1,046 nt of DNA from assembly GCF_003334305.1 (NCBI RefSeq), contig NZ_QOWS01000063.1. One strand, given 5' to 3'. A program made the position numbers and the translations under genes. Positions within the stretch are counted from its first letter, which is position 1. Each line of letters starts with the position of its first letter. This stretch comes from Escherichia coli. Its GTDB lineage: Bacteria; Pseudomonadota; Gammaproteobacteria; Enterobacterales; Enterobacteriaceae. The notes beneath the pieces are model-generated. The model was given only the letters and a program-made list of their open reading frames with translations. It had not been told where the DNA came from and ran no database searches. This document shows positions 1 through 1,046 of this stretch, piece after piece.

Positions 1-92
1 GGCGCGCCAATTCTTACACCTGCCGAACCCTGGACAATGGGACCGCCATACTGAGTCATATCTCCCTGACGCGCCGCTGGTTTTCCGCTCAT
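1..92 (-). CDS. rhs: Rhs-family protein with N-terminal PAAR domain, first 30 codons only (3'-partial; continues beyond the left edge). Likely a T6SS cargo toxin carried on the VgrG tip.
   Basis: Seen in sequence: ATG at 92..90 (minus strand) opens a frame reading MSGKPAARQGDMTQYGGPIVQGSAGVRIGA(P) with no stop before the window edge. It contains a literal P-A-A-R tetrapeptide at residues 5-8 followed by a GG-x-I-x-x-GS-x-x-V-x-IG pattern typical of PAAR-domain starts. From memory this N-terminus matches that of Escherichia coli Rhs core proteins; the specific paralogue cannot be assigned from 30 residues. It lies 66 bp downstream of the vgrG stop on the same strand. This ORF is absent from the supplied track because it is short and runs off the edge. 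Confidence 0.85.
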   Translation of the reverse strand, partial: MSGKPAARQGDMTQYGGPIVQGSAGVRIGA

Positions 93-99
93 GATTCAA

Positions 100-105
100 T
101 TCCTT
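100..105 (-). promoter_or_regulatory. Shine-Dalgarno sequence for the rhs start codon
   Basis: Minus-strand AAGGAA (plus-strand ttcctt at 100-105) sits 7 nt upstream of the ATG at 92..90 (spacer ATTGAAT), a good match in composition and spacing to an enterobacterial ribosome-binding site. Confidence 0.55.
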
Positions 106-158
106 CTTCTGTTTATTTTTAATGCTTGTTTGTTACTGAATACCGAACAGGTACGGGA

Positions 159-1046
159 TCAGTACTCTCTCATATCCGGCGTATCCTGCTTTTCATCAGG
201 GGTCTTCGGTGGGGATTTCGAGGCTGCACAGTTCCAGTTAATCAACAGTGAGTCACCATTAACCTGCTCCTTACCCTGCAAATGAATTTTTGTGCCGTTG
301 AGAAAAATTTGTCCGTCCTTCGTCAGCACCAGCCTTGCCTTACCACAGCAGAGCTCCAGATGCTCACCGGCGGAGTAAATCGCGGTCTGCCCGGTATCAT
401 CCTTTTTCGTTTTACCAACGGTGAAGGTAACGTTATTTCCGACTTTGACGTCATAACCCAGCCCGACCCTCAACGATTTATGCAAACCGATCTGCGAGGA
501 CTGCATCAGAGCCACCGAAGTGTTCATAATGCCACCTACCGTCGTCTGGTACGCCACGCCCACGGTCAGCGCACGAACAAGTCCAATCGTTTCCACCTGA
601 ACAGAACCCACGTTAATGATCTGGTTACTGCCCACCGTCTCTATCTGGTTAACGCCCACCGTCTGTATCTGATTGTTGGTAACCGCAATCATCTGATTGT
701 TGCCAATGGTCTCAGCATGGTTGTTTATCACATCCGTGGTGCGGTTATTCAGCACCTCGGTGTTCATGTTCTTCTGCGCGTGGATGTAGACCTGTTCTTT
801 CCCTGTCGCATCGTCAAACTTCAGTTCATTAAACCCGCTGCCCTTATAGGTTTTCGAACGAATGGTCATCTGCGTCTTTGTTCCCGGCAGGCTGCCGGGT
901 GTGCGGTTTTCCTGGTGGTAGGTACGCCCCATAATAATCGGCTGGTCCGGATCGCCGTTGAGGAAGTCCACAATCACCTCCTGACCCACACGCGGTATCG
1001 CCAGGTGGCCAAAACCGGTGCCTGCCCACGCCTGTGCCACACGGAT
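159..1046 (-). CDS. vgrG: T6SS spike protein VgrG, C-terminal portion (5'-partial; N-terminus lies beyond the right edge). Stop codon TGA at 159-161.
   Basis: Seen in sequence: the 293-aa ORF 159..1040 stays open to the window edge (codons 1041-1046 read I-R in frame; codon 1038-1040 is GTG, so the track's M is an internal Val). The translation contains the VgrG/gp5 OB-fold region motif (R)VAQAWAGTGFG...PRVGQEVIVDFLNGDPDQPIIMGRTY, then regularly spaced Val-Gly octapeptide repeats (TTDVINNH/AETIGNNQ/MIAVTNNQ/IQTVGVNQ/IETVGSNQ/IINVGSVQ/VETIGLVR) typical of the gp5-like beta-helix, then a ~100-aa C-terminal region ending ...SKSPPKTPDEKQDTPDMREY*. Family assignment is from recalled knowledge of VgrG/Rhs-associated vgr proteins; no search was run. 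Confidence 0.92.
   Translation of the reverse strand: MRVAQAWAGTGFGHLAIPRVGQEVIVDFLNGDPDQPIIMGRTYHQENRTPGSLPGTKTQMTIRSKTYKGSGFNELKFDDATGKEQVYIHAQKNMNTEVLNNRTTDVINNHAETIGNNQMIAVTNNQIQTVGVNQIETVGSNQIINVGSVQVETIGLVRALTVGVAYQTTVGGIMNTSVALMQSSQIGLHKSLRVGLGYDVKVGNNVTFTVGKTKKDDTGQTAIYSAGEHLELCCGKARLVLTKDGQIFLNGTKIHLQGKEQVNGDSLLINWNCAASKSPPKTPDEKQDTPDMREY
573..740 (-). repeat. Intragenic 24-nt (8-codon) tandem repeats encoding the VgrG gp5-like beta-helix, seven units
   Basis: Seen in sequence: consecutive 24-nt units at 573-596, 597-620, 621-644, 645-668, 669-692, 693-716 and 717-740 each encode an octapeptide ending in Q/H/R with V/I-G spacing. Units 621-644 (ctggttactgcccaccgtctctat) and 645-668 (ctggttaacgcccaccgtctgtat) match at 21 of 24 positions. 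This is a coding repeat inside vgrG, not an independent element. Confidence 0.7.

What the first reader, a model, noticed from the sequence alone, without database searches (positions are those of the whole stretch)
162..240. Short charged, Pro/Lys-rich C-terminal tail on VgrG
The last ~22 residues (AASKSPPKTPDEKQDTPDMREY) are low-complexity and rich in Ser, Pro, Lys, Asp, Glu and Thr, directly after the region following the beta-helix, and are likely disordered. VgrG C-terminal extensions are known to determine which PAAR, adaptor or effector partner binds, so this tail may be the specificity element for the adjacent Rhs. An unusual Cys-Cys dipeptide (LELCCGKARL) lies just upstream in the same region. 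Whether a complete DUF2345-type domain is present cannot be judged by eye.
Basis: inference. Interest (0 to 1): 0.35.

Follow-up and report, generated by a model that had tools for sequence, protein, structure and literature searches.

The report
Short flexible tail on E. coli VgrG
The last 23 residues of this E. coli type VI secretion spike protein (VgrG) are a real, probably floppy add-on to the normal spike end, seen only in VgrGs that sit next to Rhs toxins with a miniature tip domain, but it does not look like the code that picks the toxin.

Summary
On the minus strand the window encodes the last 295 residues of a 702-aa E. coli VgrG at the yncH/RhsE locus (EHEC "vgrG2"), a 66-nt spacer, and the start of an Rhs toxin gene. 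Residues 681-702 (window 227-162) are the most Pro/Lys/Asp/Glu/Ser/Thr-rich 22-mer in the protein and have low AlphaFold confidence. No DUF2345 or TTR domain is present.

The new points are these. 37 of 39 distant VgrGs sharing this C-terminal module end exactly at the Asn aligned to N679. So C680 plus 22 residues is an extension beyond the canonical spike end. In every tail-bearing locus I examined where the downstream sequence was present (many genera, one lineage only 36-38% identical), the next gene is an Rhs. In all but two of these the Rhs N-terminus is a single PAAR-like unit of about 47 aa, homologous to the P. aeruginosa Tse5 N-terminal fragment. No Eag chaperone gene lies between them.

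The tail-less E. coli paralogue instead pairs with EagR and a prePAAR/TMD/PAAR-type Rhs. Paralogues differ across the last ~190 residues, not only in the tail. The tail shows no covariation with the Rhs N-terminus, and its distal half is naturally missing in some genera.

Verdict: an ordinary but uncharacterised VgrG extension. A role in loading the Rhs is plausible and unproven.

The parts
162..1046 (-). C-terminal 295 codons of a 702-aa VgrG (aa 408-702). The gene runs off the right edge of the window.
   Evidence: Pfam and NCBIfam VgrG domains. PDB VgrG1 structures match at E 1e-100.
231..233 (-). N679, the Asn at which canonical VgrGs of this C-terminal module type terminate.
   Evidence: Invariant column in a 55-sequence alignment. 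37 of 39 distant representatives end exactly here.
228..230 (-). C680, the first residue of the extension (the 'WNC' Cys).
   Evidence: Invariant in alignments A1 and A2. It is Thr in the divergent lineage L045. The neighbouring W678 is Leu in strain APEC37.
198..227 (-). Proximal half of the tail, AASKSPPKTP (aa 681-690). This is the conserved Pro motif [GA]-A/T-x-x-x-[PV]-P-x-[AT]-P.
   Evidence: P687 and P690 are invariant and P686 is P or V in alignment A1. The motif is kept in the 36-38%-identical lineage as GASEAPPSTP. It is retained in all naturally truncated tails.
180..197 (-). Variable acidic middle of the tail, DEKQDT (aa 691-696).
   Evidence: Length and sequence vary between genera and between E. 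coli classes A and B.
162..179 (-). Semi-conserved C-terminal motif PDMREY (aa 697-702), consensus PDMR[EKQ][FY].
   Evidence: Present in Escherichia, Salmonella, Trabulsiella and Buttiauxella. Replaced or absent in Citrobacter, Yokenella, Pseudocitrobacter, Serratia and Pragia. It forms an island of DNA identity between classes A and B.
159..161 (-). VgrG stop codon (TGA).
93..158 (-). 66-nt vgrG-rhs spacer with the ribosome-binding site AAGGA at 101-105.
   Evidence: Read directly from the sequence. No promoter-like or terminator-like site in the window. No Rfam match. Only 48% identical between classes A and B.
1..92 (-). Start of the Rhs core gene, MSGKPAARQGDMTQYGGPIVQGSAGVRIGA... This is a single PAAR-like unit.
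   Evidence: Pfam gives only a weak PAAR_motif hit (E 0.098) and then DUF6531 at 46-123. Homologous to Tse5, whose shell chain starts at the equivalent PVNP.
345..350 (-). Cys-Cys dipeptide C640-C641 in LELCCGKARL.
   Evidence: C641 is invariant and C640 varies (C/R/V/S). LxCG is also present in Pseudomonas VgrG1.
619..714 (-). 24-nt direct repeats encoding the 8-residue Val-Gly repeats of the beta-helix.
   Evidence: Class B carries one extra 8-residue unit here.

Best explanation
The 23 residues after N679 (C680 plus the 22-residue tail) are a flexible extension specific to one VgrG subfamily. They are appended to the point where canonical VgrG spikes end. From established knowledge (Shneider et al. 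2013, recalled, not tested here), that point is where a PAAR cone docks. The extension belongs to the VgrG subfamily that carries Tse5-type Rhs toxins. These Rhs proteins have only a ~47-residue, single-repeat 'PAAR-like' N-terminal fragment and no Eag chaperone.

I infer that the three tails of the VgrG trimer help hold or cover this undersized tip piece and the Rhs plug. They would act as a generic collar rather than a lock-and-key. The conserved proximal Pro motif (AS-x-S/A-PP-x-TP) would be the working part. The acidic middle and the PDMR-x-F/Y end would be dispensable or accessory.

Discrimination between effectors among E. coli VgrG paralogues lies in the whole last ~190 residues, with the tail as one component.

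Shown here: the anatomy, the position of the extension, the co-occurrence, the conservation pattern and the predicted flexibility. Inferred: any physical contact with the Rhs and any role in loading.
For: 1. Position. 37 of 39 distant VgrG representatives (26-38% identity) that share the C-terminal module end exactly at the Asn aligned to N679.
2. Co-occurrence. All 24 GTDB loci found through the C-terminal module carry an Rhs gene 18-170 nt downstream with no Eag gene between. Twenty-two have the single-unit N-terminus (M.GKPAARxGD..GGPIVQGS..V.IG..G.ACS.CPGG, then NPVNP). The other two, Mixta and a Propionibacteriaceae MAG contig, have multi-unit PAAR-like N-termini. The further loci where the downstream sequence was recovered also have the single-unit type. 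The same pairing holds in a lineage only 36-38% identical, whose VgrG ends INLN-TGASEAPPSTPEDEE....
3. Contrast. The E. coli paralogue ending at the canonical Asn (..GGSVFIN, 633 aa) is followed by a DUF1795/EagR gene and an Rhs with a prePAAR motif, a hydrophobic (TMD-like) stretch and a further PAAR motif. A distant canonical VgrG is followed by DUF2169 and Tox-PAAR-like genes.
4. Partner identity. The Rhs N-terminus gives no significant PAAR domain hit (E 0.098) before DUF6531. It aligns to Tse5 from the PVNP cleavage point onward. The Tse5 N-terminal fragment (1-47) is a 5-kDa PAAR-like piece that the Tse5 authors infer serves mainly VgrG-spike interaction and describe as needed for secretion. 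Its residues 30-47 are buried in the plug (PMC10684867).
5. Constraint. The proximal prolines are invariant across genera. Tail A is unchanged in protein sequence in a 94.9%-identical allele. Tail plus spacer is at least 95% identical in DNA in nearly all of the 2,734 genomes carrying it.
6. Flexibility. See the composition figures and AlphaFold2 pLDDT of 42-57 with no secondary structure.
Against: There is no direct evidence of contact. The only complex model I could build was a single-chain fusion of three VgrG C-termini and the Rhs N-terminus. It failed (mean pLDDT 28.6). The tail is the fastest-evolving segment (mean pairwise difference 0.67, against 0.29 for the preceding 100 residues). 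That is also what a functionless linker would show. Natural tails as short as 10-11 residues exist. Mixta keeps a short tail although its Rhs has three PAAR-like units. Co-occurrence may reflect shared descent of one vgrG-rhs module, and I have only two tail-less controls. I could not examine P. aeruginosa VgrG1c, the carrier of Tse5.
Confidence: 0.4

Rival explanations
1. The tail is the specificity element that selects the cognate Rhs or PAAR, so each tail type matches one partner type.
For: Tails differ between paralogues of one genome. DNA homology between classes A and B breaks exactly at the first tail codon (query position 820). The segment identities are 77% for the helix end, 50% for the tail, 48% for the spacer and 79% for the Rhs start. 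In E. coli, tail A sits with Rhs N-terminus ..MTQYGGPIV.. and tail B with ..MTRKGLDIV... VgrG C-terminal regions are known specificity determinants in other systems (established knowledge: Bondage et al. 2016, recalled).
Against: There is no covariation between tail and Rhs N-terminus over 16 loci (rho -0.02, partial -0.12, permutation p 0.88). Near-identical Rhs N-termini pair with the full tail in E. coli and with an 11-residue tail in Pseudocitrobacter. Identical short tails pair with different Rhs N-termini in L019 and L020. The conserved part of the tail is the part nearest the spike. Paralogue differences extend over about 190 residues. The A/B association in E. coli is trivially explained by the two genes lying 66-75 nt apart.
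Confidence: 0.2
2. The tail is a functionless, weakly constrained leftover. It could be a remnant of an interdomain linker from an ancestral VgrG-Rhs fusion, or simply sequence before a drifting stop codon.
For: It evolves fastest of all segments and has many indels. Length varies naturally from 10 to 26 residues in Enterobacterales, and longer Gly/Ala-rich versions occur in Comamonadaceae. It is predicted disordered. vgrG and rhs are in the same reading frame in E. coli classes A and B. VgrG-Rhs fusion proteins exist, for example PDB 8qja.
Against: The proximal Pro motif is kept across lineages only 36-38% identical. A minimum of about 10 residues is always retained. Tail A is invariant in protein within E. 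coli, including in a 5%-diverged allele. The terminal PDMR-x-F/Y motif is kept across several genera. In other genera the spacer length is not a multiple of three, so the shared frame is probably coincidence.
Confidence: 0.2
3. The tail is a short linear motif that binds something other than the Rhs. Candidates are an unlinked adaptor or chaperone, a baseplate or membrane-complex component, or a protease.
For: Disordered tails ending in a conserved motif with a terminal aromatic residue (PDMR-x-F/Y) are typical docking peptides (general knowledge). Adaptors are known to bind VgrG C-termini in other systems (cited in bioRxiv 10.1101/2024.12.20.629533).
Against: No adaptor gene (DUF4123, DUF2169 or DUF1795) is linked in any of the loci I examined. 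The terminal motif is missing in several genera whose loci are otherwise intact.
Confidence: 0.1

Closest known systems
E. coli vgrE / EHEC O157:H7 vgrG2 (z2262), upstream of rhsE
   Same: This is the same gene and locus: yncH | vgrG | Rhs core | ... | pptA. PMC7216683 names the VgrG next to rhsE 'vgrG2'. The tail-plus-spacer sequence is present in 2,734 of 5,426 complete E. coli genomes.
   Different: Nothing differs in sequence. In the papers I could search, the tail itself is not described or tested.
P. aeruginosa VgrG1c (VgrG4, PA2685) with Tse5/RhsP1 (PA2684)
   Same: It has adjacent vgrG and rhs genes, and delivery is VgrG-specific (PMC4067218). Like Tse5, the Rhs here has a ~47-residue PAAR-like N-terminal fragment, then PVNP, then a DUF6531 plug.
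   Different: I could not obtain the VgrG1c C-terminus, so I do not know whether it carries a comparable extension. Autoproteolysis of the E. coli Rhs at N47|P48 is inferred from the alignment only.
Agrobacterium tumefaciens VgrG1/VgrG2 C-terminal variable regions (Bondage et al. 2016, recalled from memory)
   Same: The paralogues are near-identical over most of their length and diverge at the C-terminus. Each is encoded next to its own effector.
   Different: There the variable region binds adaptor-effector complexes and PAAR, and was shown by swaps to confer specificity. Here the tail is 23 residues, no adaptor gene is linked, and covariation with the partner was tested and not found.
EAEC VgrG1 C-terminal extension (DUF2345 plus TTR) that binds Tle1
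   Same: It is a VgrG extension beyond the gp5-like needle that is used for cargo loading.
   Different: That extension is a folded ~200-residue module. Here DUF2345 and TTR are absent and the extension is short and predicted disordered. The PDB 6sjl match covers only residues 6-505.
Salmonella Typhimurium VgrS short C-terminal tail (residues 711-729)
   Same: It is a short tail on a VgrG of an enteric T6SS, proposed but not shown to be an effector-loading site (bioRxiv 10.1101/2024.12.20.629533).
   Different: It belongs to a different VgrG lineage. The probably corresponding PDB entry 9mlp aligns mainly over residues 8-556, with only a weak C-terminal module match (E 0.2). In that structure the tail is ordered as an extension of the beta-prism. 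Per my recollection, not checked here, that locus also carries an EagR-type chaperone.

Membership tests
VgrG / TssI spike protein (TIGR03361) | gp27-like Phage_GPD domain, gp5 OB-fold domain and gp5-type C-terminal beta-helix | tested here: met
   Pfam: Phage_GPD E 3.6e-74, Phage_base_V E 3.4e-15, Gp5_trimer_C E 5.6e-26. TIGR03361 scores 627.5 bits against a cut-off of 186. PDB VgrG1 structures match at E 1e-100.
VgrG / TssI spike protein (TIGR03361) | Genomic association with a T6SS (hcp and tss genes) | tested here: met
   The class A copy sits in an orphan vgrG-rhs island. The 91%-identical class B copy lies directly after hcp in the aspV T6SS island of O157:H7 Sakai. O157:H7 PV15-279 carries both copies.
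VgrG / TssI spike protein (TIGR03361) | Trimeric spike secreted by the T6SS | not testable with these tools
   Requires biochemistry or secretion assays.
Evolved or extended VgrG with DUF2345/TTR or an effector domain | Folded C-terminal domain (DUF2345, TTR or an enzymatic domain) after the beta-helix | tested here: not met
   No such Pfam hit at E up to 10. Only 23 residues follow the canonical end, and they are predicted unstructured.
VgrG C-terminal specificity region (Agrobacterium-type) | The C-terminal region differs between paralogues that are otherwise near-identical | tested here: met
   A against C: about 97% identical up to about aa 505, then unrelated. A against B: lowest identity in the last ~50 residues.
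VgrG C-terminal specificity region (Agrobacterium-type) | The tail varies in step with the cognate partner | tested here: not met
   Spearman -0.02, partial -0.12, permutation p 0.88 over 16 loci. Natural truncations pair with a near-identical partner N-terminus. Power is low with 16 loci.
VgrG C-terminal specificity region (Agrobacterium-type) | The tail is necessary and sufficient for partner binding | not testable with these tools
   Needs swaps, deletions and pull-downs. The surrogate AlphaFold fusion model was uninformative.
Intrinsically disordered C-terminal tail | Low-complexity composition biased to Pro and charged residues, with no predicted structure | tested here: met
   73% P/K/D/E/S/T and 5% hydrophobic residues. 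pLDDT 42-57 with no DSSP elements after residue 657. This is a prediction for the monomer only.
Tse5-type Rhs (the partner gene) | About 47-residue PAAR-like N-terminal fragment, then PVNP and a DUF6531 plug | tested here: met
   DUF6531 at 46-123, E 3.8e-19, and PAAR_motif only at E 0.098. Aligns to the Tse5 shell from its first residue P48, E 3.9e-18. Fragment boundaries come from PMC10684867.
Tse5-type Rhs (the partner gene) | N-terminal autoproteolysis and VgrG-dependent secretion | not testable with these tools
   Requires protein work.

The most novel reading that the evidence does not exclude
The three VgrG tails are a structural substitute for the missing two-thirds of a PAAR cone. In this vgrG-rhs module the Rhs supplies only one PAAR repeat. 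The conserved Cys plus the Pro-rich proximal segments of the trimer would then complete or clamp the tip. On this reading the spike tip is built jointly from VgrG and effector, which would be a distinct way of mounting an Rhs toxin without a full PAAR domain or an Eag chaperone.
Probability: 0.15. Interest if true: 0.6.

Novelty: new member of a known kind. Interest (0 to 1): 0.3.

Why it matters
VgrG C-terminal ends decide which toxins a type VI secretion system fires. This vgrG-rhs module is present in about half of complete E. coli genomes, including O157:H7. How the common E. coli Rhs toxins attach to the spike is not known. They have only a 5-kDa PAAR-like piece, as Tse5 does. If the tail helps mount them, it would be a simple and testable handle: a 23-residue deletion or a tail swap. 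That would let one study or disable Rhs delivery. If the tail does nothing, paralogue specificity must lie in the divergent beta-helix instead. Either result narrows where to look.

Tried and rejected
1. A protein search with only the last 102 residues returned just short fragments. I repeated it with the full-length protein.
2. I ran an AlphaFold2 surrogate complex: one chain made of Rhs 1-125 plus three copies of VgrG 573-702 joined by Gly/Ser linkers, with a 17-row paired alignment. It gave mean pLDDT 28.6 and pTM 0.19, so I drew nothing from it.
3. A regulatory or RNA element under the tail or spacer is rejected. There is no Rfam match at E up to 1, no promoter-like or terminator-like site and no inverted repeat.
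4. The plus-strand ORFs antisense to the tail (91-285, 64 aa; 126-251, 41 aa) are rejected as mechanical ORFs. The region is fully explained by the annotated vgrG and rhs genes.
5. DUF2345 or TTR membership is rejected.
6. I considered a metal site formed by the WNC cysteines of the trimer with the Rhs CxxC. By homology to Tse5 the CxxC region is buried in the Rhs plug. The Cys is Thr in lineage L045. I therefore did not pursue it.
7. Read-through fusion of VgrG to Rhs is judged unlikely. The two genes share a frame in E. coli, but two TGA stops intervene, and spacer lengths elsewhere are not multiples of three.
8. I could not retrieve P. aeruginosa VgrG1c with the collections available.
Full report
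**What is in the window**

The coding strand is the minus strand. One frame reads through the last 295 codons of a large ORF that runs off the right edge of the window. It ends ...LELCCGKARLVLTKDGQIFLNGTKIHLQGKEQVNGDSLLINWNCAASKSPPKTPDEKQDTPDMREY, with the stop at window 161-159. A 66-nt spacer follows (158-93), carrying an AAGGA ribosome-binding site at 101-105. A second ORF then starts at 92-90 and reads MSGKPAARQGDMTQYGGPIVQGSAGVRIGA.

The window is 100% identical to E. coli chromosomes, where the two genes are annotated as 'type VI secretion system tip protein VgrG' and 'RHS element core protein'. In strain A7 the locus reads yncH | vgrG (702 aa) | Rhs core (1,417 aa) | dsORF-h1 | ISAs1 remnant | pptA. 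This is the RhsE locus. Every copy of this VgrG class that I located sits at the same place. It corresponds to the 'vgrG2' (z2262) next to rhsE in EHEC EDL933 (PMC7216683).

**Check of the observation**

The 22 residues quoted are aa 681-702, at window 227-162. The stated range 162-240 also covers N677 to C680.

- The tail is 73% P/K/D/E/S/T, against 32% for the rest of the protein.
- It is 18% Pro, 41% charged and 5% hydrophobic.
- No 22-residue window outside the tail reaches that bias.

The full protein has Phage_GPD, Phage_base_V and Gp5_trimer_C domains. It has no DUF2345 and no TTR. It scores far above the NCBIfam VgrG cut-offs and matches solved VgrG1 structures at E 1e-100.

AlphaFold2 was run on the full protein with a 55-sequence alignment. 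The mean pLDDT was 82.7. The last four 10-residue blocks gave 50, 57, 49 and 42, and no secondary structure was assigned after residue 657. So the tail is real, compositionally exceptional and predicted flexible. This prediction is for a monomer only.

**Where the tail starts, and why that matters**

I searched the last 130 residues against representatives of 1.8 billion protein clusters. I then aligned 39 distant full-length VgrGs (26-38% identity) that share the C-terminal module with the close homologues.

Thirty-seven of the 39 end exactly at an Asn, in endings such as ..KIDLN..KILEN and ..KVGVN. That Asn is an invariant column aligned to N679 of INWN. The other two have one more residue. 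So C680 and the 22 residues after it are an extension beyond the canonical C-terminus of the spike. They are not merely the ragged end of the beta-helix. By established knowledge (Shneider et al. 2013, recalled, not tested here), this blunt end is where PAAR proteins dock.

**The tail across relatives**

Homologues from Escherichia, Salmonella, Citrobacter, Kluyvera, Trabulsiella, Buttiauxella and others share one layout:

- WNC, then G or A.
- A proximal Pro motif (x-x-x-[PV]-P-x-[AT]-P) whose prolines are invariant in alignment A1.
- An acidic stretch of variable length.
- Often a terminal PDMR[EKQ][FY].

Some genera have naturally short tails that keep only the proximal part:

| Genus | Tail |
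|---|---|
| Pseudocitrobacter | AASKAPPKTPG |
| Yokenella | GATETVPDAPK |
| Citrobacter / Phytobacter | G..xNPPDAPEQ |

A lineage only 36-38% identical in this module ends INLN-TGASEAPPSTPEDEEIENKDDSYFDS. It keeps the proximal motif but not the Cys.

Within E. coli the tail is essentially fixed. Tail plus spacer occurs in 2,734 of 5,426 complete genomes, at 95% DNA identity or more in all but one. A 94.9%-identical allele has an unchanged tail protein sequence.

**The partner**

All 24 loci recovered from species-representative genomes through the C-terminal module have an Rhs gene 18-170 nt downstream, with no Eag chaperone gene between. So do the additional loci where the downstream sequence was present.

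In 22 of the 24, the Rhs begins with a single PAAR-like unit followed by a CxxC and NPVNP. The other two differ. Mixta has three tandem PAAR-like units. A contig binned to a Propionibacteriaceae MAG has two.

Pfam finds no significant PAAR domain in the E. coli Rhs N-terminus (best E 0.098). It does find DUF6531 at residues 46-123. The sequence aligns to P. aeruginosa Tse5 starting exactly at the first residue of the Tse5 shell chain, PVNP (E 3.9e-18). The Tse5 paper reports the following (PMC10684867):

- Residues 1-47 are a 5-kDa 'PAAR-like' fragment cleaved at K47|P48.
- Residues 30-47 are buried in the DUF6531 plug.
- The authors infer that the fragment's role is reduced to VgrG-spike interaction, and they describe it as needed for secretion.

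Tse5 is delivered specifically by the adjacent VgrG1c (PMC4067218). The E. coli Rhs is therefore a Tse5-type effector with a miniature tip piece.

**Paralogues**

E. coli has three VgrG classes that are 90-100% identical up to about residue 505.

| Class | Length | Tail | Location and partner |
|---|---|---|---|
| A (this one) | 702 aa | AASKSPPKTPDEKQDTPDMREY | yncH locus, followed by a Tse5-type Rhs |
| B | 713 aa | GATQPVPDAPVPKDLPPGMPDMRQF | After hcp in the aspV T6SS island (Sakai ECs_0236), sometimes at yncH; tail-plus-spacer sequence found in 2,059 genomes; followed by a Tse5-type Rhs |
| C | 633 aa | None (ends at the canonical Asn..GGSVFIN) | cusS locus, followed by a DUF1795/EagR gene and an Rhs with a prePAAR motif, a hydrophobic (TMD-like) stretch and a further PAAR motif |

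O157:H7 PV15-279 carries both A and B. DNA similarity between A and B stops at the first tail codon in the megablast search. By segment it is 77% for the helix end, 50% for the tail, 48% for the spacer and 79% for the Rhs start.

But class C differs over about 190 residues, and class B differs throughout the helix. The tail is not the sole variable element.

**Test of the specificity idea**

Over 16 non-redundant loci I compared pairwise divergence of four segments: the tail, the Rhs N-terminus (residues 1-30), the Rhs plug and the preceding 100 residues of VgrG.

- The tail is the fastest-evolving segment: 0.67, against 0.29 for the VgrG helix, 0.19 for the Rhs N-terminus and 0.21 for the plug.
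- Its divergence is uncorrelated with that of the Rhs N-terminus (rho -0.02).
- After removing the helix background the partial correlation is -0.12, with permutation p 0.88.

Natural cases point the same way. Near-identical Rhs N-termini pair with a full or an 11-residue tail. Identical short tails pair with different Rhs N-termini. With 16 loci the test has low power. What there is argues against a lock-and-key code.

**Most likely mechanism**

Four things together make a role in mounting the undersized Rhs tip piece the best-supported reading:

- the position of the extension, directly after the docking end;
- its strict association with Tse5-type Rhs genes;
- its absence from the paralogue that uses an EagR gene and a prePAAR/PAAR-type Rhs;
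- the conservation of the proximal Pro motif.

On this reading the tail works generically rather than selectively. I put this at about 0.4. No step involving physical contact is shown.

The rivals are:

- a functionless linker or remnant (0.2);
- a docking peptide for some unlinked factor (0.1).

My attempt to model the complex as a single fused chain failed (pLDDT 28.6).

**Other checks**

No Rfam family, promoter-like site, terminator-like site or inverted repeat lies under the tail or spacer. So the two genes are probably co-transcribed. The plus-strand ORFs are mechanical.

Of the Cys-Cys pair, the second Cys (C641) is invariant in alignments A1 and A2, which hold about 28 close homologues. 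It is shared with Pseudomonas VgrG1 (LVCG). The first (C640) is C, R, V or S in relatives.

**Comparison with known systems and novelty**

The gene is already annotated in thousands of genomes. VgrG C-terminal extensions are a well-known way of attaching cargo. In the literature I could search, this particular short extension and its link to Tse5-type Rhs proteins are not described. The library covers only open-access papers. Ma et al. 2017 on E. coli PAAR-Rhs proteins was not readable.

I rate it a new member of a known kind, of modest interest.

Noticed in passing
window 1-92 (minus strand); L001 12955-13854: The Rhs N-terminus is not a full PAAR domain. It is one PAAR-like repeat plus CxxC (47 aa) ahead of PVNP and a DUF6531 plug. 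It is homologous to the autocleaved 5-kDa N-terminal fragment of P. aeruginosa Tse5. The same 92 nt are 100% identical to the start of rhsD in E. coli K-12, which has no adjacent vgrG.
   Followed up: partly
L003 6001-7460 (strain C21, aspV locus); protein P0069: There are in-frame VgrG-Rhs deletion fusions. A class B VgrG is joined at ..IHLE to the Rhs C-terminal core (PEVTWYGWDGDRL..) and toxin, losing the tail and the Rhs N-terminus. One 1,046-aa version is recorded on 764 contigs, so it is common rather than a one-off artefact.
   Followed up: partly
L025 (Mixta tenebrionis), Rhs start about 57 nt after the vgrG stop: This Rhs begins with three tandem copies of the PAAR-like unit (GKPAARQGD..GGPIVQG..), where the enterobacterial ones have one. 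Its VgrG still has a short WNC-GATQAPPSAPGE tail.
   Followed up: no
L005, L007, L008: Short contigs binned into Lentisphaerae, Collinsella and Akkermansia metagenome-assembled genomes carry vgrG-rhs junctions whose VgrG C-termini and Rhs N-termini match the E. coli class A or class B proteins. L005 is identical over the compared stretch. L007 and L008 are near-identical, with small differences. These are most likely mis-binned Escherichia contigs.
   Followed up: no
window 619-714: Three 24-nt direct repeats encode the 8-residue Val-Gly repeats (VGxNQIxT) that gave Vgr proteins their name. Class B VgrG has one extra 8-residue unit here. That unit accounts for most of the 702 against 713 aa length difference.
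   Followed up: partly
window 96-98 and 159-161: vgrG and rhs are in the same reading frame, separated by two TGA codons (66-nt spacer). Class B is also in frame (75 nt). In other genera the spacer length is not a multiple of three, so this is probably coincidence.
   Followed up: partly
L042 (strain APEC37), VgrG residue 678: The otherwise invariant Trp of the WNC motif is Leu in this 94.9%-identical allele, while the tail is unchanged.
   Followed up: no
L001 17220-17669, compared with L029, L042 and L043 downstream of the Rhs core: The same VgrG and Rhs N-terminus are followed in different strains by different Rhs C-terminal toxin tips and different downstream small ORFs (dsORF-h1, a DUF6973 tip, others). 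In some strains the genes are disrupted: an internal stop in vgrG, and IS3 in rhs in strain E62.
   Followed up: no
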